A DNA stretch of 11,971 bases from a virus. Taxonomy: Duplodnaviria > Heunggongvirae > Uroviricota > Caudoviricetes. Shown here piece by piece: positions 1-11,971 of this stretch. How positions within the stretch are numbered: the first letter of the stretch is position 1; each line of letters opens with the position of its first letter. Made by a program: the position numbers and the translations under genes. The notes beneath the pieces were generated by a model. That model was not told the DNA's origin. It saw nothing but the letters and a program-made list of their open reading frames with translations, and did not search any database. The stretch lies in the IMG/VR virus record IMGVR_UViG_2778261454_000011, positions 1 to 11,971 of that record; one strand, given 5' to 3'.

Positions 1-112
1 AACTGAAGTTGCCCTGAAAATGAAATTTTTTTGCACAACCGCAGAACTTTTCCGCAGGGCATCAGTCTTAATTAGTGCCACTGCTTTTCTTTGATGTCCC
101 CATTTTGTGGAG

Positions 113-155
113 CCCATCAACCCCGCCATTTCGGTTCAAGGTTGATGGGTTTTTT
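113..155 (+). terminator. Rho-independent terminator-like hairpin (CCCATCAACC ... GGTTGATGGG followed by TTTTTT)
   Basis: A 10-bp perfect inverted repeat at 113..122 and 140..149 is followed by a T6 tract at 150..155 on the + strand. It may mark the 3' end of a flanking host transcript or sRNA just outside the prophage end. Confidence 0.4.
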
Positions 156-235
156 GTTGCCTGAAATTTATGCCTTTTAAAATCATGATGTTAGAAGCAG
201 TGTTTTTTAACGATGGCGACAAATTGGCGGCAGAG

Positions 236-544: not shown

Positions 545-1162
545 TCATTCAATTTCGAAATCATCAATCTTCACTTCAAGCTCCAGACTGGTCGTAAAAC
601 CGTTATCCGGGCTGACAGTATGCGTCAGGGTGGTAATGGTCCATTCCGCATCATCTATCGGCTGTTTAAAGCCACTGACCTTCACAGGCATTTCCGTGTA
701 GAGATCTGCCCGACCTTCTGCCAGTTGTAGCGAGAATGACGCAACGCCGCGTTGCAGGCGTTCCCACTGCATTTTCGCCGCTCGTTCGGCGTTGCTCCGG
801 TTGGCATAAGTGCGATTAAGTACCAGCACGTTTTCATCCGTACCCACCAGGTAATCGCCCTGCTTCGCTTCCGGCTCTTTCTTCTGCTTCTTAGTCCTGC
901 GCTTACGCTTCACCGTGGTGCTTTCTTTCTTCTCGGGTTCCAGATTGCCGCCCAGACTCAGCAGCACCACCTGCTCACCTTCCGATGGTCGCCACCATGT
1001 GCGGGCATTACCCGCGCGCAGCGTCAGCCAGTTAATCCAGTTGGTTTCAAGGTCGCCCGTTTTCACCCGACAAAGCCAGTGTTCCCGGTCCACTTCGGTG
1101 ACTACACCAGTGCGGATCAGGTTGGTGATAAGGCGCATGATTTCGGTTAATTGTGCGTTCAT
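545..1162 (-). CDS. Chimeric tail ORF: baseplate spike gpV N-terminal domain fused to a probable late control gene D C-terminal fragment
   Basis: The N-terminal ~75 aa (LIRTGVVTEVD...CRVKTGDLETNWINWLTLRAGNARTWWRPSEGEQVVLLSLGGNLE) match the gpV N-terminal domain of P2 as recalled. The rest follows a K/R-rich linker and does not resemble the gpV C-terminus. Its position immediately upstream of ogr is where the 3' end of D lies in P2. At 205 aa it is far too short for an intact D. Confidence 0.55.
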   Translation of the reverse strand: MNAQLTEIMRLITNLIRTGVVTEVDREHWLCRVKTGDLETNWINWLTLRAGNARTWWRPSEGEQVVLLSLGGNLEPEKKESTTVKRKRRTKKQKKEPEAKQGDYLVGTDENVLVLNRTYANRSNAERAAKMQWERLQRGVASFSLQLAEGRADLYTEMPVKVSGFKQPIDDAEWTITTLTHTVSPDNGFTTSLELEVKIDDFEIE

Positions 1163-1262: not shown

Positions 1263-2522
1263 ATGTTTAGATTATCTAGTGTCAAGATTGAAGGTTTTTG
1301 GGGAAGACTAAATGCATCATGTTCATTTAATGAAGATGTAAATATTATTATTGGTCGAAATGGGACCGGTAAAACAACCTTTATGAATATTCTTCACTCA
1401 GTTCTGGCATTAGAACTCGAATCACTAAATGAGAATAGTTTTGATAATGTAACAATAAAAATAAAAGAAGGAAGCAAAACTAAAACAATAAAAGTTGTGA
1501 GTAAATTTGACATAACTAAAGCTTTGCCTACGTTTGAATATACAATTTCTAGAAAGAAATATATTATCAGATCCTTTGAAGATCGTAGACTACCTATATA
1601 TATGAGGAGAAAATATCAGGAAGACGTTGAAAAACTTAAGTTAGAGTTAGATAAATTAGTTGCTTTATCTTCTCTATCAGTTTACCGACTTAGAAGCGGT
1701 GAAGATTTTGAAATCAGAGACAAATATGGCTCAAAATTAATCAACCCTGTTGATTACCGATTAGAACAATTATTGCAGAACCTAACAAAATATCAACTTT
1801 ATTTATCACAAAGAGCTCGTGATGTTTCTGCAATATTACAGAAAGAGGTTCTTGCTTCTATTCTTTATAGTAAAGAAGATGGTATCGATGACACATTTAA
1901 CTTTTCTTTTGATAAAGAAAAAGAACGTAGAAATTTAATAGCTGCATATTCTCAGCTTGGAGCTTTTGATAGTGATGTCAGAAAGAAGATTAACTTTCAC
2001 GTTGAATCTATTGCCAATACATTTGAAGAATTACGACTTGCAGAAAAAAATAACAGAAATATTTTAAATGTAGATTACAGATCATTTGAGGCATTACGAA
2101 AGACGCAAAGAATTATAAAGATGTCTTTAAAATCCGAGGAGAAAATAAAAAACATATTTCTTCCTATAAATCTATTTTTAGAAACATTACATGAGTTCAT
2201 AACCGATAAAAAATTTAATTTTATCTCCGGTGAGTTAGTAATAGAAAATGAGCATGGGCCGATTAGCCATAGTAATTTATCGTCTGGTGAAAAACAGCTA
2301 TTAATTCTTTTTATTGAAACTTTGCTACAGCAAAACAAACCTTTCATCTATCTTACTGATGAACCAGAATTATCGCTACATATTGCATGGCAACGAAAAA
2401 TAATACCTGCAATCAAACAACTTAATCCTAATGCGCAAATTATCGCCGCTACGCATTCACCAGAAGTGGCTTCTAAATATCGAAATGCAATCTTTGATAT
2501 GGAGAAATTGGTTCATGGATGA
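1263..2522 (+). CDS. ariA: ABC-type / AAA_15-AAA_21 family ATPase, PARIS AriA-like
   Basis: A 419-aa ORF with an AAGGA ribosome-binding site 7 nt upstream. It carries Walker A GRNGTGKTT (K37), an ABC-signature-like LSSGEKQ, Walker B FIYLTDEPELSLH and an H-loop AATHSPE. The region is strongly AT-rich compared with the flanking phage genes. Its stop overlaps the start of the next gene (ATGGATGA). Confidence 0.7.
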   Translation: MFRLSSVKIEGFWGRLNASCSFNEDVNIIIGRNGTGKTTFMNILHSVLALELESLNENSFDNVTIKIKEGSKTKTIKVVSKFDITKALPTFEYTISRKKYIIRSFEDRRLPIYMRRKYQEDVEKLKLELDKLVALSSLSVYRLRSGEDFEIRDKYGSKLINPVDYRLEQLLQNLTKYQLYLSQRARDVSAILQKEVLASILYSKEDGIDDTFNFSFDKEKERRNLIAAYSQLGAFDSDVRKKINFHVESIANTFEELRLAEKNNRNILNVDYRSFEALRKTQRIIKMSLKSEEKIKNIFLPINLFLETLHEFITDKKFNFISGELVIENEHGPISHSNLSSGEKQLLILFIETLLQQNKPFIYLTDEPELSLHIAWQRKIIPAIKQLNPNAQIIAATHSPEVASKYRNAIFDMEKLVHG

Positions 2523-3366
2523 TTTCCATTATTCTGCCGAAGCAGAAAATGTAATGAATTTATTTTACCAAGCTGAAGCCATGGTTTATGTTGAAGGCCC
2601 AGATGATATTTGCTTTTGGGAAATCATCTTTAATAAAGCTAGTTCATTAAAGGTTGAAATCAAAGATGTTGGCGGCTGTGAAGAATTAAAAAAATATATT
2701 GATAGAGTTACTGATGAAGATCTTCAAATTATAATTGCATGTGATGCAGACTTCACTACATTTGAAAATGAGGAAAACGCTGATAGTCGTATTGTAAAAA
2801 CTTATGGGCACTCCATCGAAAACACGTTTATTGACAAAACAGGCATATATAAGGCAATAAAAACTCTCGGAAAATTACCTCAAAAGATAATGAACGATGT
2901 CAACGTCGATTCTTGGACAGAAGACTTTTATACCAAAATGGACCCCCTAATAAAACTTGATATATACAATCATATTTATAGAAAAGGCATTTCAGTTATT
3001 GGTGACAGTGCAGATCGTTTCATGAAATCTAGAAAATCAAATGAAATTTGCGAGCAAAAAATCACGAGTTACAAAAACACCATCATTGAAAAATTAGGTG
3101 TGGAATCAGATAACATCGATTCATCTTTCAAATCAAAATCGATAGAATACAGAAAGTGGCTTAGAGGTCATTTTCTATTTTCTGCAGTACATAGGTACAT
3201 TAGCACAACTGCAGAAAAAAATGGAAAAAAAGTATCCTTATCATATGAATCATTATATTCCAATTTAATGAATACATTTGAATCCAATTTTACCAATACT
3301 CATATTGAGTTTAATCATTACCACGAAAAAATTAAAGCCATAAATATGCCACACGAAATGAAATAA
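2515..3366 (+). CDS. ariB: DUF4435 / TOPRIM-like nuclease partner, PARIS AriB-like
   Basis: A 283-aa ORF starting at ATG 2515 with a GGAG 7 nt upstream, overlapping the ariA stop by 8 nt. Conserved acidic motifs VYVEGPDD (E27), IIACDADF (D-x-D) and YGHSIEN fit a TOPRIM-type catalytic core. It has the same AT-rich composition as the ATPase gene. Confidence 0.65.
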   Translation: MDDFHYSAEAENVMNLFYQAEAMVYVEGPDDICFWEIIFNKASSLKVEIKDVGGCEELKKYIDRVTDEDLQIIIACDADFTTFENEENADSRIVKTYGHSIENTFIDKTGIYKAIKTLGKLPQKIMNDVNVDSWTEDFYTKMDPLIKLDIYNHIYRKGISVIGDSADRFMKSRKSNEICEQKITSYKNTIIEKLGVESDNIDSSFKSKSIEYRKWLRGHFLFSAVHRYISTTAEKNGKKVSLSYESLYSNLMNTFESNFTNTHIEFNHYHEKIKAINMPHEMK

Positions 3367-5179: not shown

Positions 5180-6388
5180 ACACCAGGCCATCTCCCGCGC
5201 ACGGCGGTTAAGGCACAGGCCCACGTCTTTAAGCAGTACATCATCGACTTCGCCAAAGAAGTGGAGGTGGAGCTGAAAGGCGATCCGATGGTGCTTCCCA
5301 ACGGGGCCACGCTTTACTTCCTCGGCACCAATGCCCGCACGGCCCAGAGTTACCACGGCAACCTGTATCTGGATGAATATTTCTGGATACCGAAATTCCA
5401 GGAGCTGCGCAAAGTGGCTTCCGGTATGGCTATTCACAAAAAATGGCGACAAACCTATTTTTCCACGCCATCCAGCCTGACACACAGTGCTTATCCGTTC
5501 TGGTCCGGTGCGCTGTTCAACCGTGGGCGCAACAAAGCCGATAAGGTGGACATCGACCTGTCCCACAGCAATCTGGCCCCCGGCCTGCTGTGCGCAGACG
5601 GGCAATACCGCCAGATAGTCACCGTGGAAGATGCGGTGCGCGGCGGCTGTAACCTGTTCGACCTTGACCAGTTGCGCATGGAGTACAGCCCGGACGAATA
5701 CCAGAACCTGCTGATGTGCGAGTTTGTGGACGATCTCGCGTCCGTGTTCCCGCTCAGCGAGCTGCAGGCGTGCATGGTAGACAGCTGGGAAGTCTGGACT
5801 GACTTTCATGCACTGGCCCTGCGCCCGTTTGGCTGGCGCGAAGTATGGATCGGTTATGACCCGGCGAAAGGTACGCAGAATGGCGACAGCGCCGGATGCG
5901 TGGTGGTGGCACCGCCAGCCGTGCCGGGCGGCAAGTTCCGCATTCTTGAGCGTCACCAGTGGCGCGGAATGGACTTTCGCGCCCAGGCTGACGCCATCAA
6001 AAACCTGACCGAACAGTACAACGTGACCTACATCGGCATCGACTCGACAGGTGTCGGCCACGGGGTTTACGAGAACGTGAAAGCGTTTTTTCCAGCCGTC
6101 CGGGAGTTTGTCTACAACCCCAACGTTAAAAACGCCCTGGTACTCAAGGCCTACGACATTATCAGTCACCGCCGTCTGGAGTTTGACGCCGGACACACCG
6201 ACATAGCGCAGTCATTTATGGCAATCCGTCGCGCCACCACCGCCAGCGGCAACCGCCCGACCTATGAAGCCAGCCGCAGCGAAGAAGCCAGCCATGCCGA
6301 TCTGGCCTGGGCAACCATGCACGCACTGTTTAACGAACCGCTGCAGGGCGAGTCCGCCAATACCAGCAATATTGTGGAGATTTTTTGA
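5180..6388 (+). pseudogene. P: Terminase large (ATPase) subunit gpP, N-terminally truncated fragment
   Basis: The open frame begins just after a stop at 5177..5179 with no start codon. Its translation (...KAQAHVFKQYIIDFAKEVEVELKGDPMVLPNGATLYFLGTNARTAQSYHGNLYLDEYFWIPKF...) matches the central and C-terminal parts of P2-type terminase P. About 400 aa remain against roughly 590 for intact P, and the fragment abuts lysA on the opposite strand with about 20 bp between them. Confidence 0.7.
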
Positions 6389-7448: not shown

Positions 7449-8378
7449 TTATTCTGATACTTCAGGTTGATATCTCTGGATTTCATCAATCAGCTCTGAT
7501 GAATATTTCGCACAAAGCCTATTAATAAATAATGGCTCAACACTTTTGCAATACGATAAATATCCTTGAAGAAATAGCCTTTTCTTCTCATCAAGAGCCT
7601 CCCATTTAAAAATAAGCGATTTAACCATCCTTTTTTTATCTCTCCCTAAGGATACTCCACCATCTGTTGTCAAAGTCACACCCGTAACCATCATTTTATT
7701 TTTCTTTGACATATGCAGTGTCTTTTTTCTATTAATCCATAGTTTTGATGGGTATTTTAAAGTTTTTAAATTCGAGCGTAAAAAAGGTGGTATTTGCTTC
7801 AATACATTTTCTTCGTTTGTTGAGAAGTACATATCATCAGCATAGCGTGTATATGTTACACCTTTTGAAAGACAAAATTCATTCAATATATGATCTAATT
7901 CATAGCATATAGCATTGCTTACCACAGGGGAACTAACAGCACCCATAGTCAGTCTCCCGTTAAAGCATACTATTTTTACCAGCAAATCAGTATCATCCTT
8001 TGACCAATCATCACTGAAGAAATGCTTGTTGTCGTTTATAAATCTCTCAACATCACTTTTCTTAATTGAATCAAAAAAACCTTCAAAGTCCATCTTAAGC
8101 ATAAAACGTTTAGCTTTGTGAATGCTTGCATGTTTGAACACTGATGAACCCTGCTGATATGCTACAGCATTTGGATGAATCGGCAATTTCGACAGAACAT
8201 TATCATGAAGTAATCTCTGCAAAACTTTTAATTCTTTAGAGGGCTGATAGACGATTCTTGTCCCACCGCCTTTTTTAGGTACAGAAAATTTACCATAATG
8301 CGAGTTAGCATCATTTGCAACTTTTAATATAAAATCAGCTTCTAACAGTAAAACTTTAGCTAGATACTCAATTAACAT
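7449..8378 (-). CDS. Retron-type reverse transcriptase
   Basis: A 309-aa ORF with RT motifs: IVYQPSKELKVLQ (finger region), KMDFEGFFDSI (motif A), YTRYADDMYFS (Y-x-D-D catalytic motif C) and a VTG triplet (MMVTGVTL) typical of retron RTs. Its ATG lies 1 nt after the stop of the upstream ORF. Confidence 0.8.
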   Translation of the reverse strand: MLIEYLAKVLLLEADFILKVANDANSHYGKFSVPKKGGGTRIVYQPSKELKVLQRLLHDNVLSKLPIHPNAVAYQQGSSVFKHASIHKAKRFMLKMDFEGFFDSIKKSDVERFINDNKHFFSDDWSKDDTDLLVKIVCFNGRLTMGAVSSPVVSNAICYELDHILNEFCLSKGVTYTRYADDMYFSTNEENVLKQIPPFLRSNLKTLKYPSKLWINRKKTLHMSKKNKMMVTGVTLTTDGGVSLGRDKKRMVKSLIFKWEALDEKKRLFLQGYLSYCKSVEPLFINRLCAKYSSELIDEIQRYQPEVSE

Positions 8379-8379
8379 A

Positions 8380-8622
8380 TCACATGATCCTTTCTAATTC
8401 TGCTTTGAATTTAGATATCATTATTAAATCGGATAATGATCTAGCTCTACTTCGTTGAATACTTTCAACTAAATCTTTCATCTTTTCATGATTAAAAAAT
8501 TTAATATAATCGACACATGAATAATGGGTCACGCCCTCAAATCGACTTTCCTTAAAAATCCCAAGAGCAACTCCAATAGAAACAATAAATGAAATATTTT
8601 TATTAATTTTATAATTTATCAA
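8380..8622 (-). CDS. Small ORF in frame with the upstream effector ORF (possible C-terminal effector fragment with a hydrophobic segment)
   Basis: An 80-codon ORF with a TTG start. It is in the same reading frame as 8665..9432 and separated from it by 14 sense codons and a single TAA. It contains the hydrophobic stretch ISFIVSIGVALGIF. Confidence 0.35.
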   Translation of the reverse strand: MINYKINKNISFIVSIGVALGIFKESRFEGVTHYSCVDYIKFFNHEKMKDLVESIQRSRARSLSDLIMISKFKAELERIM

Positions 8623-8664
8623 CCTGCCTGTGATATTAAATATCTCAGGAATTGTTATTGTACA

Positions 8665-9432
8665 TTAAGAAGATATAAGAACGAGAACAATAAATAATAT
8701 TATTTTTGGTGATTTTTTGTAATCTCCTATTGAATTTGTATTAGTTATGTTTGATTGAACTTTCCTATTTAGCCTTTCATTTATTTTAGGCATACACGTT
8801 AAAATTGTCTCAAATTCAGTATAGATTGTAGGGCCAAATTTGGATTCACTATCAACCCATTTTACGGGCCCTGTATTGATAAATGACTTATGACTTTCAA
8901 ACTTTTTATCTAATATAGGAAGAAGTTTTTTACGTAAAACAGGACTTAATGAAAATGCGCCCAATTCAGCTACAGTGCCATAACTCTCTACGAGAATAAT
9001 TACCACATCAGAAAAATCCGCAAGCCATTCTTCAAGTGATAACGCATTCACATTACTATGAGTTCCTAAATTGCTAATTACTTCCCATGCTAATTCTGCT
9101 CGAAAAGTAACAAATTCTTTATGATGCTTAGCAATATATTTTTCCAGCACCCCTCTATTTGAACAATAAGTCTCATCTCCTCCACAAATAAATAATACTT
9201 TTGGCAGGATATAATTAAAAGAATTCAAGTTACTTGGAAAAAAACTTGAAATAAAATTTTCTTTTGCTCGTAAATATCTAGGATGTTTAAACCACATAAC
9301 AATTAATGCCCATACAAGAGTTCCCGAGACACAAGTTAGCCTGGTGTCTATAAATGACACAAGGCTAACTTGTGTCGAGATACCAAGCAATCCATACGAG
9401 TTGGCTAAACACCAACCACTAGAAAGTAACAT
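8665..9432 (-). CDS. Retron effector candidate with a nucleoside 2-deoxyribosyltransferase-like (NDT-like) domain
   Basis: A 255-aa ORF carrying ...KVLFICGGDE... and ...VVIILVESYGTVAELGAFS..., which resemble the NDT-family motifs including the D/E-x-G-T-x-x-E-L-G catalytic region. The ATG at 9432 is preceded by AGGAAAG. It ends in a hydrophobic tail (KIILFIVLVLISS) followed by TAA. The start codon is uncertain. Confidence 0.55.
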   Translation of the reverse strand: MLLSSGWCLANSYGLLGISTQVSLVSFIDTRLTCVSGTLVWALIVMWFKHPRYLRAKENFISSFFPSNLNSFNYILPKVLFICGGDETYCSNRGVLEKYIAKHHKEFVTFRAELAWEVISNLGTHSNVNALSLEEWLADFSDVVIILVESYGTVAELGAFSLSPVLRKKLLPILDKKFESHKSFINTGPVKWVDSESKFGPTIYTEFETILTCMPKINERLNRKVQSNITNTNSIGDYKKSPKIILFIVLVLISS

Positions 9433-9455
9433 ATTGAATGTACTTTCCTGCTAAG

Positions 9456-9700
9456 GGCACAGCTAGGCTAGCACTAACATACGGATTATTCAAGTGAATG
9501 CAGCTCAGCGCGCGCTCGTATCCCCGCCACGCCTGCCCGCTTTATGTAGTGGTTTTCATGCAGGTGCATGATCTACGCAAAAGCCCGCCAGTTCTGGCGG
9601 GCCTTAGCAAAAACGATCCTCAAACGATCATGCAATCTCATGCAGCATAGACATGCACAGACGAGTAAAGCGAATCGGACTTTACGCAAGGTGAACTCCT
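9456..9700 (-). ncRNA. Candidate retron non-coding RNA (msr-msd) region
   Basis: A non-coding stretch upstream of the effector and RT operon that is dense in nested inverted repeats: TGCATGATC / GATCATGCA arms (about 9558..9660) enclose a GCCCGCCAG-N4-CTGGCGGGC hairpin (9584..9605), and a 12-bp palindrome CAGCGCGCGCTG lies near 9506..9517. An 8-9 bp inverted pair TGCTAAGG / CCTTAGCA near 9604..9612 and 9456..9464 could be a1/a2-like flanking repeats. The boundaries are not defined. Confidence 0.35.
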
Positions 9701-9874
9701 CAGCGGGTATAATCAGTATGTCGGAAAATCTCTAAAAATAAATAATTCGGTTAACAGGTATGCTTACAAAAGCATATATTTGATTAAAAATCATGTAAGG
9801 GGGAGGATCTCAAACTGAATCGCCACGGTTTTACAAATTTCGATAGTCTCTCTAACGTTTCGGCTGAGGTCAAA

Positions 9875-10300
9875 ATGAAAAGCTTTTACGTATTAATTTT
9901 AATTCTGGTTGCAAGCTTTGTTAGCGTCCCAGTTCAGGCGGTAACAGCTAAAAACTATGAGAAAGGAACTAAAGCTCAACAGAAATCAATATCTTACCTT
10001 TCATGTGCATTCTATGGCAGTAGCACACAATTAGATCCTAGCTACACGGGGCAAGTACCTACAGCCGATATCAAGATATTACAGAAAGCAGCTTACCACG
10101 CTTACAACGATGCGCTCTCATACTTTGGCTATGAGGAACCAGATCACGAACAACGCATAATTGATTATGCTGAATTTGTGGCGTCGCAAGAAGCTGTGTT
10201 ATGGGATAAGCCGGGAATGAATGGAAAGCAGGTAACACTAATTGCTCGTTCTCTCTACAATGAGAGTAACTGTAACTTGTTACTGGACTCAATTAAGTAG
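9875..10300 (+). CDS. Secreted or periplasmic protein of unknown function (signal peptide)
   Basis: A 141-aa ORF with GAGG 6 nt upstream of the ATG. The N-terminus MKSFYVLILILVASFVSVPVQA-VTA is a typical Sec signal peptide with an A-x-A cleavage site. I recognise no family for the mature part. Confidence 0.6.
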   Translation: MKSFYVLILILVASFVSVPVQAVTAKNYEKGTKAQQKSISYLSCAFYGSSTQLDPSYTGQVPTADIKILQKAAYHAYNDALSYFGYEEPDHEQRIIDYAEFVASQEAVLWDKPGMNGKQVTLIARSLYNESNCNLLLDSIK

Positions 10301-10459
10301 GAAAAAGATGGTATTTTGCCCGTAGTTTCAACCTTAATCTCCGAACCTGTCGCAGAACGGGCATTCACTCATCAAATAAACGCCACACCTAACGCCTCAC
10401 TGTACTCGTTGTTCAACCTTGCTGACGCCAGAACCAAGTTCAGACGCCAGCAACTTTTC

Positions 10460-10693
10460 TTAATGCAGCCAGCTGTCGTCTTCCCACACCTTCTGCATAA
10501 TTTTCATCACTTGTTTTCTTTCTTCGTCCAGTTGCAGTCCGGTCAGTTCCACACCGTTAGAGCTACCTTTGCGGATGCGAATTACCGTTTTGGGATACAG
10601 GGGGCGCAGATTGCGGTAAAGCTCTGATTCAAGGGCGTCCAGGGTAGACTGGCTAATCTTCTGCTCTTTATCGATCATTATTTCAATGCGCAT
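10460..10693 (-). CDS. dinI: DinI-family protein (SOS-associated RecA modulator homolog)
   Basis: A 77-aa ORF from ATG 10693..10691 with GAGGTG 6 nt upstream. The translation MRIEIMIDKEQKISQSTLDALESELYRNL...VMKIMQKVWEDDSWL aligns along its length with E. coli DinI (MRIEVTIAKTSPLPAGAIDALAGELSRRI...ILQETWESADDW). The track ORF start at 10765 is an unsupported extension. Confidence 0.75.
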   Translation of the reverse strand: MRIEIMIDKEQKISQSTLDALESELYRNLRPLYPKTVIRIRKGSSNGVELTGLQLDEERKQVMKIMQKVWEDDSWLH

Positions 10694-10703
10694 AAAAGTC
10701 ACC

Positions 10704-10892
10704 TCAACTGATGACGTCCATTGAGCGGTTGTATTCGTGAGTTCTGATTTTTGCCATGAGTTCATCAGTCAACTCAGAAACCCACTGCAGAGCCAGCCCC
10801 TTCTCTTCATCACTACACTCACTAGCCGCTACAAGCTTAAGAAAAAAATCAATGCGCTGGAGCTTCAAAGACTCCAAAAAATAGTCCTGCAT
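10704..10892 (-). CDS. Hypothetical 62-aa protein, first gene of a LexA-box-controlled operon
   Basis: A strong AGGAGG 4 nt upstream of ATG 10892. It ends 11 nt before the dinI-like start and lies directly downstream of the LexA boxes. No family was recognised. Confidence 0.5.
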   Translation of the reverse strand: MQDYFLESLKLQRIDFFLKLVAASECSDEEKGLALQWVSELTDELMAKIRTHEYNRSMDVIS

Positions 10893-10917
10893 CTTTCCTC
10901 CTATGACACCAAAACAA

Positions 10918-10950
10918 TACTGTATATATAATCACTGTTTATATTTACAG
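10918..10950. promoter_or_regulatory. LexA (SOS) operator: one consensus box plus an overlapping half-site
   Basis: CTGTTTATATTTACAG at 10935..10950 is a perfect CTGT-N8-ACAG SOS box with an AT-rich spacer. An overlapping TACTGTATATATAA left half-site lies at 10918..10931. Both sit in an AT-rich promoter-like region upstream of the orf62 and dinI-like genes on the - strand. Confidence 0.65.
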
Positions 10951-11212
10951 TATATAATAATCTTACTGATGTAAAACGTTTTTTTACGTTCATCAGCCTG
11001 ATATACCTGGTATTATTAAGAGCACGAATTGTTAACCCGCGTAATTAATACAGCTCCCGCCACTTATCATCTTCCTGCAAACGCTGGTTCCGATAGAAGA
11101 TACGCAGGCCTGCTCCTGACGGAATACTGCCGCCGCGAAGGAGTAAATCGACTTCTTTCTCGCTGCCATCAAATCCTCTGGACTTCAGTTCATAGACGAG
11201 CTGCTGTCGCTG

Positions 11213-11971
11213 ATGGTCTGTAATCCCCTTGCAACCGATCTCACATCTAAAATGTTTGCCCATTATCGAGATAAACGACTGACAGGTGAGATCTACTTCA
11301 GCGAGAAATGGAAGAAAGGGGCCAGCCCGGTCACCATTAACCTGGAGCAAAGCTATCTAAGTAGTGTTTTTAGCGAACTATCCCGCCTGGGCGAATGGTC
11401 GTATCCAAACCCACTGGAGAACATGCGAAAATTCACCATCGCAGAAAAAGAGATGGCATGGCTTACCCATGAGCAGATTGTTGAACTGCTGGATGATTGC
11501 AAACGTCAGGACCCAATTCTGGCACTGGTAGTCAAGATATGCTTAAGCACAGGCGCACGCTGGCGAGAAGCAATAAACCTTACCCGCTCACAGGTGACCA
11601 AATACCGAATTACCTTTGTCAGAACGAAGGGGAAGAAAAACAGAAGCATCCCTATCAGTAAAGAGCTTTACGAAGAGATCATGGCGCTCGATGGGTTCAA
11701 TTTCTTCACAGACTGCTATTTTCAATTTTTATCCGTGATGGAAAAAACGTCTATCGTGCTCCCTCGCGGTCAACTGACACACGTTCTGCGCCATACGTTT
11801 GCGGCGCATTTTATGATGTCGGGTGGAAATATCCTTGCTTTGCAAAAAATCCTCGGACATCACGACATAAAAATGACTATGCGTTACGCACATCTAGCAC
11901 CGGATCACCTGGAAACTGCATTACGGTTTAATCCGCTGGCAACACTACCAACATCAATAGCAAGTTTTTGA
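11213..11971 (+). CDS. int: Tyrosine recombinase / P2-type integrase, catalytic C-terminal part (N-terminus missing or frameshifted)
   Basis: The translation contains the catalytic signature of tyrosine recombinases: ...[11 protein letters not shown]... (Arg), ...[17 protein letters not shown]... (His-x-x-Arg), ...[15 protein letters not shown] (His, Tyr). It aligns with the C-terminal roughly 240 aa of P2 Int as recalled. The frame has an in-frame stop at 11144 and no arm-binding N-terminal domain. It runs to the window end at a TGA. Confidence 0.75.

What the first reader, a model, noticed from the sequence alone, without database searches (positions are those of the whole stretch)
10460..10960. 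LexA-box-controlled orf62 and dinI-like operon next to the cargo region
A perfect CTGT-N8-ACAG box overlaps a second half-site in an AT-rich promoter region upstream of a 62-aa ORF with a strong ribosome-binding site and a DinI-family gene. An SOS-inducible module like this in a P2/186-type element usually drives prophage induction or modulates RecA. Here the prophage cannot be induced, so the module may instead tune the host SOS response. The 62-aa protein has no recognisable family and could be a small antirepressor-like regulator.
Basis: partly seen in the sequence, partly recalled or inferred. Interest (0 to 1): 0.45.

Follow-up and report, generated by a model that had tools for sequence, protein, structure and literature searches.

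The report
Stranded Tum–DinI SOS switch of prophage
This is the well-known DNA-damage switch (LexA-repressed Tum antirepressor plus a DinI-like protein) of Fels-2/186-type P2-family phages, left behind in a badly deleted E. coli prophage that has lost the repressor it acts on. It is ordinary and already characterised.

Summary
On the minus strand a conserved promoter (TTTACA-17-TACTGT) is overlapped by a perfect LexA box. That box shares one base with a second, weaker box. A strong Shine-Dalgarno precedes a 62-aa ORF, which is followed 10 nt later by a 77-aa DinI-family gene.

The 62-aa protein does have a family. It is 61/62 identical to tum (ECHS_RS04495) of the E. coli HS prophage DuoHS. 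In-frame deletion of that gene, like lexA(Ind-), abolishes mitomycin-C induction (PMC12055606). Profile searches also link it to the N-terminal half of phage 186 Tum and to PsP3 TumA. The pair is the split tumA/tumB form of the 186 SOS operon, as already described for Fels-2 and PsP3.

The two boxes have the same 31-bp layout as the ColE1 colicin operator. This layout is conserved in the six phage promoters of this Tum type that were compared. Phage 186 and PsP3 have a single box.

The window's prophage carries three deletions and lacks cI, apl, cII, most of gene A and the head, tail and lysis genes, so the switch has no local target. The module is 100% identical to copies in intact prophages, so nothing suggests it has been repurposed. 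Verdict: already known, low interest.

The parts
10966..10998 (-). Hairpin (GCUGAUGAACGU-loop-ACGUUUUACAUCAG) about 50 nt after the stop of the gene A remnant. Its 3' arm contains the -35 hexamer. It is the likely terminator or insulator between the early operon and the SOS promoter.
   Evidence: RNA fold -12.3 kcal/mol, z = -6.0, 0 of 200 shuffles fold as well. Lemire 2011 describes analogous palindromes before the LexA boxes of Gifsy prophages.
10947..10975 (-). Sigma-70-type promoter equivalent to 186 p95: -35 TTTACA (10975..10970), 17-nt spacer, -10 TACTGT (10952..10947). An A-tract lies just upstream of the -35.
   Evidence: Read. 186 p95 is annotated with -10 TACTGT overlapping its LexA box. 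The -35 hexamer and the spacer length are invariant in 6 phages while the spacer sequence is only 50% identical. The generic scan did not call it, because TACTGT matches TATAAT at only 3 of 6 positions.
10935..10950 (-). Distal LexA box CTGTAAATATAAACAG (20-mer 10952..10933, 17/20 to consensus). It overlaps the -10 hexamer.
10920..10935 (-). Proximal LexA box GTGATTATATATACAG (20-mer 10937..10918, 16/20 to consensus). It shares G10935 with the distal box and covers the expected transcription start.
   Evidence: Same 31-bp layout as the ColE1 cea operator. Conserved in Fels-2, 500465-1, SopEPhi, YpM_MLG42 and Klebsiella phi4.1.
10897..10902 (-). Shine-Dalgarno AGGAGG of tum/orf62.
   Evidence: Conserved in all six promoters of this type.
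10704..10892 (-). tum (tumA-type), 62 aa: the LexA-controlled antirepressor.
   Evidence: 61/62 identical to ECHS_RS04495, the tum gene of DuoHS (PMC12055606). PHROG 698 at E=3.6e-38, with cross-hits to the Tum families PHROG 8554 and 1993.
10460..10693 (-). dinI-like gene (tumB-type), 77 aa. Its Shine-Dalgarno GAGGTG overlaps the tum stop codon, and the gap between the two genes is 10 nt.
   Evidence: Pfam DinI at E=6.6e-23. E. coli DinI structure 1GHH at E=2.7e-6. The RefSeq annotations of L001, L003 and E. coli HS give this gene the same protein accession, WP_001217575.1. Close match to PsP3 TumB.
10419..10453 (-). Stable hairpin immediately after the dinI stop codon, with no U-run after it. 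It is a possible partial terminator or 3' stabiliser and marks the boundary with the variable cargo region.
   Evidence: -21 kcal/mol, z = -3.5. The DuoHS sequence diverges from the window right after the dinI stop.
11045..11224 (-). Remnant of replication gene A: the last 59 codons plus the stop.
   Evidence: Maps to L003 16329..16508. The rest of gene A is absent.
11222..11971 (+). C-terminal fragment of the integrase, lacking about 94 N-terminal codons. The deletion joint with the gene A remnant is at 11222..11224.
   Evidence: 100% identical to L003 22769..23518. No complete E. coli genome spans this joint.

Best explanation
This is the SOS (tum) operon of a DuoHS/Fels-2/SopEPhi-type P2-family prophage, in the split tumA-tumB form.

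**In an intact phage**
1. Two LexA dimers bind a tandem, one-base-overlapping operator that covers the -10 hexamer and the transcription start, and keep the promoter shut.
2. DNA damage activates RecA, and LexA cleaves itself.
3. The operon is transcribed.
4. The 62-aa Tum binds the phage CI repressor and stops it binding its operators, which starts lytic growth.
5. The co-translated DinI-like protein binds RecA filaments and modulates the SOS signal.

**In this window**
The prophage has lost cI, apl, cII, most of gene A and most structural and lysis genes through three deletions. The operon is therefore probably still SOS-inducible but has no local target. It is a stranded induction switch, not a new regulator.

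**Shown versus inferred**
- Shown here: the sequence features, the homology, the conservation of the operator, and the deletions.
- Shown elsewhere: the requirement for tum and for cleavable LexA in induction, for a 98%-identical gene in E. coli HS.
- From literature recall, paper not read here: Tum binding to CI, for phage 186.
- Inferred: LexA binding to this particular operator, cooperative binding at the two boxes, and expression in this host.
For: - orf62 is 61/62 identical to ECHS_RS04495. The Phollow paper names that gene as tum, deleted it in frame, and found that both the tum deletion and lexA(Ind-) abolish mitomycin-C-induced lysis and viral foci.
- DuoHS sits at the same rcdA/ybjL site and has the same gene order: A, tum, dinI, cargo, portal.
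- The module DNA is 97% identical to DuoHS over the 623 aligned columns.
- Lemire 2011 states that Fels-2 and PsP3 carry tum split by a stop codon, with the upstream gene encoding the antirepressor and the downstream gene the DinI homologue. Fels-2 STM2728 is 98.4% identical to orf62.
- SopEPhi Tum is 88.7% identical and is reported to be SOS-induced.
- Profile links: 186 Tum residues 7-44 hit PHROG 698 at 2.7e-5. orf62 hits PHROG 8554 at 2.4e-8, and 186 Tum hits it at 1.4e-11. Reciprocal HMM searches score 16-20 bits. hhalign gives P=7e-4 over 41 columns. The shared motif is R[IV]..[FMI]..[LM].A....C...[ED][KR]..A[LI]..[IVL].E[LIM].
- The DinI assignment rests.
- The operator and promoter are conserved across diverged lineages, and the operator has the same layout as the ColE1 operator.
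- The exact 62-aa protein is recorded in more than 55,000 blocks of the assembly collection. In all 10 sampled contexts the order is gpA, tum, DinI, variable cargo, portal.
- The deletions are shown.
Against: - Pairwise BLASTP between orf62 and 186 Tum finds nothing, and the hhalign probability is only 26% because both alignments are shallow. The link to 186 Tum itself therefore rests on profiles, a bridging family and synteny.
- No experiment addresses this exact copy or this host.
- I could not read Bunny et al. 2002 or Shearwin et al. 1998.
- The generic promoter scan did not call the minus-strand promoter.
- The identical Tum protein co-occurs with CI proteins that are only 53% identical, so its target surface or specificity is not understood.
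Confidence: 0.9

Rival explanations
1. Domesticated SOS modulator. With the prophage dead, the host keeps the operon because the DinI-like protein, and perhaps the small protein, tune RecA and LexA dynamics after DNA damage.
For: The DinI domain is intact and resembles E. coli DinI, a RecA-filament binder. The promoter, operator, ribosome-binding sites and both ORFs are intact. The 186 record annotates the DinI-like Tum72 as modulating SOS induction.
Against: The module is 100% identical to copies in eight complete E. coli genomes, and in the two inspected it follows a full-length gene A. The deletion joint is unique among 5,426 complete genomes, so there has been no time for selection to show. 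Lemire 2011 saw no effect on induction when prophage dinI homologues were deleted. A neighbouring cargo gene, the retron effector, carries a premature stop, which suggests decay rather than domestication. All 10 sampled contexts of the exact protein have a full gene A.
Confidence: 0.08
2. Trans-acting inducer. The orphan Tum still works on CI repressors of co-resident or incoming Fels-2/DuoHS-type phages, adding a second SOS-triggered antirepressor source (prophage crosstalk) or biasing superinfecting relatives towards lysis.
For: Trans-acting antirepressor crosstalk is documented for Gifsy and Fels-1 prophages. The identical Tum protein occurs with CI proteins only 53% identical, which suggests broad specificity or a conserved target surface. 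About 1,126 of 5,426 complete E. coli genomes carry this module, and some carry up to three copies, so co-residence is plausible.
Against: Nothing is known about other prophages in the source genome. Even if true, this would be a by-product of the known activity rather than a new function. No data show cross-immunity activity for this Tum type.
Confidence: 0.25
3. Chance AT-rich palindrome and spurious small ORF, with no LexA regulation.
For: The region is 74% A+T, and the generic promoter scan missed the minus-strand promoter.
Against: The consensus 20-mer match never occurred in 200 shuffles. The operator and -35 are conserved while the spacer diverges. The ORF is conserved across Escherichia, Salmonella, Klebsiella, Yersinia and other Enterobacterales. 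Genetic evidence exists for the 98%-identical gene.
Confidence: 0.01

Closest known systems
tum (ECHS_RS04495) and dinI-like gene (ECHS_RS04500) of the E. coli HS P2-like prophage DuoHS (Nat Microbiol 2025, PMC12055606)
   Same: Tum is 61/62 identical, and the RefSeq annotations give the DinI-like gene the same protein accession (WP_001217575.1). The DNA is 97% identical over the 623 aligned columns. The chromosomal site (rcdA ... ogr-ybjL) and the gene order are the same. The distal box is identical, and the proximal box differs at two inner positions while keeping the same layout.
   Different: DuoHS is intact and inducible. The window's element has lost cI, apl, cII, most of gene A and most morphogenesis and lysis genes. 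The cargo downstream of dinI differs.
Fels-2 STM2728 / STM2726.1 and SopEPhi orf10 / orf11 (Felsduovirus)
   Same: 98.4% and 88.7% identity to orf62. Same dual LexA operator, promoter and DinI partner. Lemire 2011 describes the Fels-2 tum as split by a stop codon.
   Different: They are in Salmonella phages with different cargo. The Fels-2 proximal box is identical to that of ColE1, while the window's differs at two positions.
Phage 186 SOS operon (p95, tum, orf97) and PsP3 tumA/tumB
   Same: Same position after gene A. A LexA box overlaps a TACTGT -10 hexamer. An antirepressor module is followed by a DinI module. Homology is detectable at profile level.
   Different: In 186 the two modules are fused into one 146-aa protein with internal starts. 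186 and PsP3 each have a single LexA box. The Tum N-domain is too diverged for pairwise BLAST to detect.
Colicin operators with two overlapping SOS boxes (for example ColE1 cea)
   Same: Identical 31-bp layout CTGT-N9-CAGTG-N10-CAG in the same orientation relative to the gene. 26/31 bases are identical for the window and 28/31 for Fels-2. Colicin genes are reported to bind two LexA dimers at such sites, giving very tight repression (PMC2994835).
   Different: This is a resemblance of operator design only. The regulated genes are unrelated. Both of the window's boxes are closer to the consensus (17/20 and 16/20) than those of ColE1 (15/20 and 15/20).
Gifsy-type LexA-controlled dinI-antirepressor (gfoA/gftA) operons
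   Same: A LexA-repressed operon encoding a small antirepressor plus a DinI homologue, preceded by a terminator-like palindrome.
   Different: The gene order is reversed (dinI first), the antirepressors are unrelated in sequence, and the phages are lambdoid.

Membership tests
Tum / TumA antirepressor of 186-type Peduoviridae | Sequence homology to a characterised Tum | tested here: met
   98% identity to DuoHS tum. PHROG 698 cross-hits with 186 Tum, PHROG 8554 and PHROG 1993. Reciprocal HMM hits. hhalign P=7e-4. Pairwise BLAST to 186 Tum is negative.
Tum / TumA antirepressor of 186-type Peduoviridae | First gene of an operon just downstream of replication gene A, followed by or fused to a DinI-like module | tested here: met
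   In the window only the last 59 codons of gene A remain.
Tum / TumA antirepressor of 186-type Peduoviridae | Promoter repressed by LexA (SOS box overlapping the -10 hexamer) | tested here: met
   Sequence-level test only. LexA binding itself was not tested.
Tum / TumA antirepressor of 186-type Peduoviridae | Binds the cognate CI repressor and is required for SOS induction of the prophage | not testable with these tools
   Genetic requirement shown for the 98%-identical DuoHS gene. Biochemistry was reported for 186 Tum (Shearwin 1998, cited). This copy has no cognate CI in the window.
DinI family (PF06183) | Match to the family profile above the curated cut-off | tested here: met
   81.3 bits against a cut-off of 24.2, covering profile positions 1-63 of 63. 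1GHH at E=2.7e-6.
DinI family (PF06183) | Acidic C-terminal helix that contacts RecA | tested here: inconclusive
   The C-terminus LDEERKQVMKIMQKVWEDDSWLH aligns with the DinI C-terminal region. No structure or binding test was done.
LexA operator (E. coli-type SOS box) | CTGT-N8-ACAG palindrome close to TACTGTATATATATACAGTA | tested here: met
   Distal box 17/20 with a perfect core. Proximal box 16/20 with GTG in place of CTG.
LexA operator (E. coli-type SOS box) | LexA binding and SOS-dependent derepression | not testable with these tools
   Needs a gel shift or footprint and a reporter in lexA(Ind-). Indirect support comes from the DuoHS lexA(Ind-) phenotype.
Colicin-type tandem overlapping SOS boxes | Two 16-bp boxes that share one base pair, immediately downstream of or overlapping the -10 hexamer | tested here: met
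Colicin-type tandem overlapping SOS boxes | Binding of two LexA dimers, giving tight and delayed induction | not testable with these tools
   Reported for colicin operators. Not tested for tum promoters.

The most novel reading that the evidence does not exclude
The Fels-2/DuoHS-type tum promoters use a colicin-style tandem LexA operator, whereas 186 and PsP3 use a single box. This may make these phages late, threshold-type responders to DNA damage. In this remnant the surviving operon could then act as a damage-gated, trans-acting inducer of related prophages, or as a RecA modulator, instead of being inert. I did not find the tandem-box design of tum promoters described in the papers I could read. 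Its kinetic consequence, and any role for the orphan copy, are untested.
Probability: 0.12. Interest if true: 0.35.

Novelty: already known. Interest (0 to 1): 0.1.

Why it matters
It matters little as a discovery. The module is the standard induction switch of a very common group of enterobacterial P2-family prophages. It is present in about a fifth of complete E. coli genomes, and its function has been shown genetically in a near-identical copy.

The result has some practical value for annotation:
- The widespread 62-aa 'hypothetical protein' (WP_001154434-type, PHROG 698, no Pfam) should be labelled Tum/TumA antirepressor.
- The 101-aa ORF call for the DinI gene should be trimmed to 77 aa.

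The colicin-like tandem LexA operator is a small point that may deserve a kinetic comparison with single-box 186.

Tried and rejected
- **Pfam on orf62, PsP3 TumA and the Tum N-domain:** no family found.
- **PDB sequence search with orf62:** nothing found.
- **Pairwise BLASTP of orf62 against 186 Tum:** no alignment. Homology had to be shown through profiles and a bridging family.
- **hhalign:** probability only 26% because both alignments are shallow (Neff 1.4 and 2.1). I treat it as supportive, not decisive.
- **Two database searches:** the listed hits were mostly close relatives and did not by themselves bridge the two families.
- **Bunny et al. 2002 (PMC151935):** not held.
- **Literature search for TumA/TumB:** returned only unrelated papers.
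- **Generic promoter and terminator scan:** it missed the conserved minus-strand promoter. It reported a plus-strand ATGACA-18-TATAAT site, which I regard as a by-product of the palindromic operator and the reverse complement of the ribosome-binding-site region. It also reported a weak 'terminator' at 10715..10698, which is more likely a small hairpin over the dinI Shine-Dalgarno than a terminator.
- **Heterology index for the boxes:** not computed, because I did not have the published matrix. I used mismatch counts and comparison with ColE1 instead.
- **Structure prediction:** not run, because 98% identity to a characterised gene settled the assignment.
- **Domestication reading:** considered and rejected as the main reading, for the reasons given under rival explanations.

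Full report
**What is in the sequence**

All features lie on the minus strand and were read directly.
- A hairpin at 10998..10966 overlaps the -35 hexamer (-12.3 kcal/mol, z = -6.0).
- The promoter has a -35 hexamer TTTACA (10975..10970), a 17-nt spacer and a -10 hexamer TACTGT (10952..10947).
- The distal LexA box CTGTAAATATAAACAG lies at 10950..10935.
- The proximal box GTGATTATATATACAG lies at 10935..10920 and shares one G with the distal box.
- A Shine-Dalgarno AGGAGG lies at 10902..10897.
- The 62-aa ORF spans 10892..10704.
- After a 10-nt gap that contains GAGGTG, a 77-aa ORF spans 10693..10460. The mechanical ORF list gives a 101-aa version starting at 10765. The homologues and the RefSeq annotation use the 77-aa start.

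The perfect box is the only zero-mismatch CTGT-N8-ACAG in the window. Its 20-mer matches the LexA consensus at 17/20, and none of 200 shuffles produced such a match. The proximal 20-mer matches at 16/20. The 'second half-site' is better described as a complete, weaker second box.

**What the two genes are**

The downstream gene is a clear DinI-family member. It scores 81 bits on Pfam PF06183 against a cut-off of 24, and it matches E. coli DinI structure 1GHH at E=2.7e-6. It closely resembles PsP3 TumB.

The 62-aa protein has no Pfam or PDB match, but it is not an orphan.
- It is PHROG 698 (E=3.6e-38) and also hits PHROG 8554 (2.4e-8) and PHROG 1993 (2e-3).
- The N-terminal part of phage 186 Tum (residues 7-44) hits the same three families, at 2.7e-5, 1.4e-11 and 1.4e-22. 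PsP3 TumA is PHROG 1993.
- A multiple alignment shows a graded series: orf62, then ESSI-2/ev040, then Yersinia 'Tum', then 186 Tum-N and PsP3 TumA. They share a core motif around a conserved Cys and an ...[ED][KR]..A[LI]..[IVL].E[LIM] segment.
- Independent profiles built from the two database searches find each other reciprocally at 16-20 bits. hhalign gives P=7e-4 over 41 columns.
- Pairwise BLASTP sees nothing.

**The decisive link**

The module is common. It occurs in 1,126 of 5,426 complete E. coli genomes and in many Felsduovirus-like phages of Salmonella, Klebsiella and Yersinia.

E. coli HS carries an intact relative, DuoHS, at the same chromosomal site (rcdA | int ... ogr | ybjL). Its gene ECHS_RS04495 lies between the replication endonuclease and the DinI-like gene and is 61/62 identical to orf62. 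The RefSeq annotations give the DinI-like gene the same protein accession, WP_001217575.1, in E. coli HS and in L001 and L003, whose DNA is 100% identical to the window across this gene. The module DNA is 97% identical to DuoHS over the 623 aligned columns.

The Phollow paper (PMC12055606) names ECHS_RS04495 as tum and deleted it in frame. It shows that both the tum deletion and lexA(Ind-) abolish mitomycin-C-triggered lysis and virion foci. Lemire et al. 2011 (PMC3121763) state that Fels-2 and PsP3 carry the 186 tum reading frame split by a stop codon. [quoted passage not shown] Fels-2 STM2728 is 98.4% identical to orf62, and SopEPhi orf10 is 88.7% identical. SopEPhi Tum is described as SOS-induced during gut inflammation. 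The 186 and PsP3 records annotate p95, the LexA site, tum, tumA and tumB in the same positions. The finding is thus the known SOS operon of 186-type phages in its split form.

**The operator**

The 31-mer CTGTAAATATAAACAGTGATTATATATACAG has the same layout as the ColE1 cea operator CTGTATATAAAACCAGTGGTTATATGTACAG. In both, two 16-bp boxes share one G, and the orientation relative to the gene is the same. Identity to ColE1 is 26/31 for the window and 28/31 for Fels-2. [quoted passage not shown]

All six PHROG-698-type promoters examined have the tandem arrangement: the window, Fels-2, 500465-1, SopEPhi, Yersinia MLG42 and Klebsiella phi4.1. Phage 186, PsP3, ESSI-2, ev040 and YenM_06.16-2 have a single box.

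Across the four diverged lineages the -35 hexamer is invariant and the spacer length is fixed at 17 nt. The operator is 88% identical, whereas the spacer sequence is only 50% identical and the 30 nt upstream 56% identical. This is a clear phylogenetic footprint. Cooperative binding at the two boxes and the resulting induction kinetics are inferred by analogy only.

**The context: a wrecked prophage**

The window was compared with the closest intact prophage (L003, E. coli EC21Z-063, annotation) and with DuoHS. It is colinear with both except for three deletions.
1. From inside baseplate gene V to inside gene D, with the joint near 934..940. This removes the tail genes.
2. From the lysozyme gene to inside terminase gene P, with the joint at 5209..5210. 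This removes the holin, head completion, small terminase, capsid and scaffold genes.
3. From gene A (only the last 59 codons remain, 11045..11224) to codon ~94 of int, with the joint at 11222..11224. This removes dam, traR, cII, the apl-like gene and cI.

No complete E. coli genome spans the third joint.

What survives, apart from ogr, a few tail and lysis genes, part of P and the portal gene Q:
- a PARIS system (AriA/AriB, 1263..3366);
- a type II-A/St85 retron, whose effector carries a premature stop;
- a 141-aa unknown ORF that converges on dinI;
- the tum-dinI operon.

**Does the orphan module have a new role?**

Nothing in the sequence says so. It is 100% identical over 661 nt to copies in eight complete E. 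coli genomes, and in the two inspected (L001, L003) it follows a full-length gene A. The flanks are 99.7-100% identical to L003, so the deletions are recent on the scale of point mutation. In all ten sampled contexts of the exact protein, gene A is full length.

On SOS induction the remnant would presumably still make Tum and the DinI-like protein. The DinI-like protein could still touch RecA, and Tum could still act on a related CI in trans. Such crosstalk is known for other prophages. The identical Tum also occurs with CI proteins only 53% identical. These are possibilities, not findings.

**Verdict**

It is wrong in calling the small protein family-less, and it is unsupported in proposing a host-tuning role. 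The system is already known and interest is low. The only mildly new point is the colicin-style tandem LexA operator that distinguishes the Fels-2/DuoHS-type tum promoters from those of 186 and PsP3.

Noticed in passing
window 8640-8725 (inside the retron effector gene, 8380-9432, minus strand): Fourteen substitutions, mostly A/T transversions, are packed into 86 bp of a 6-kb stretch that has only two other differences from E. coli EC21Z-063. They create an in-frame stop that splits the St85/type II-A NDT effector into 255-aa and 80-aa ORFs. None of the 8 complete genomes that carry this gene shares the patch.
   Followed up: partly
window 1263-2522 and 2431-3366 (+): A PARIS defence pair (AriA ATPase and AriB DUF4435/Toprim) is inserted between baseplate gene V and the tail-completion genes. 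It survives intact in the remnant.
   Followed up: partly
window 7449-8378 (-): A retron reverse transcriptase (best PADLOC match RT_II-A, E=5.8e-105) lies next to the disrupted effector. The msr/msd RNA should lie near 9433-9800, but Rfam reported nothing there at gathering threshold.
   Followed up: no
window 934-940, 5209-5210, 11222-11224: Three deletion joints relative to the intact relatives (DuoHS and EC21Z-063), each with 2-7 bp of overlap between the flanking alignments. The first creates a chimeric V'-'D ORF (545-1162, minus strand). The third creates a chimeric ATG-int ORF (11213-11971).
   Followed up: partly
window 80-158 (+): The RybB sRNA gene (Rfam RF00110, 105 bits) lies just outside the ogr end of the prophage, marking the host flank.
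   Followed up: no
L001 18804-19754 versus L003 21524-22093: The same Tum protein (WP_001154434.1) occurs in prophages whose CI repressors are only 53% identical. One of them (316 aa) has a duplicated N-terminal DNA-binding domain. This raises the question of what surface Tum recognises.
   Followed up: partly
window 9875-10300 (+): A 141-aa ORF with no PADLOC match (the Pfam scan that included it failed to run) converges on dinI. It recurs next to dinI in at least one other cargo variant (L021).
   Followed up: no
loci L014-L023: In 8 of 10 sampled phages the first cargo or defence gene after dinI points the same way as tum-dinI. As with 186 orf97, the SOS promoter may read into the defence hotspot. 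In this window the first cargo gene is convergent instead.
   Followed up: no
window 10903-10932 (+): A promoter-like site, ATGACA-18-TATAAT (11 of 12 matches), faces away from tum and overlaps the LexA boxes. It is probably a by-product of the palindromic operator.
   Followed up: no
window 10698-10715 (-): A small hairpin (-9 kcal/mol) pairs the end of tum with the dinI Shine-Dalgarno. It could couple dinI translation to termination of tum translation.
   Followed up: no
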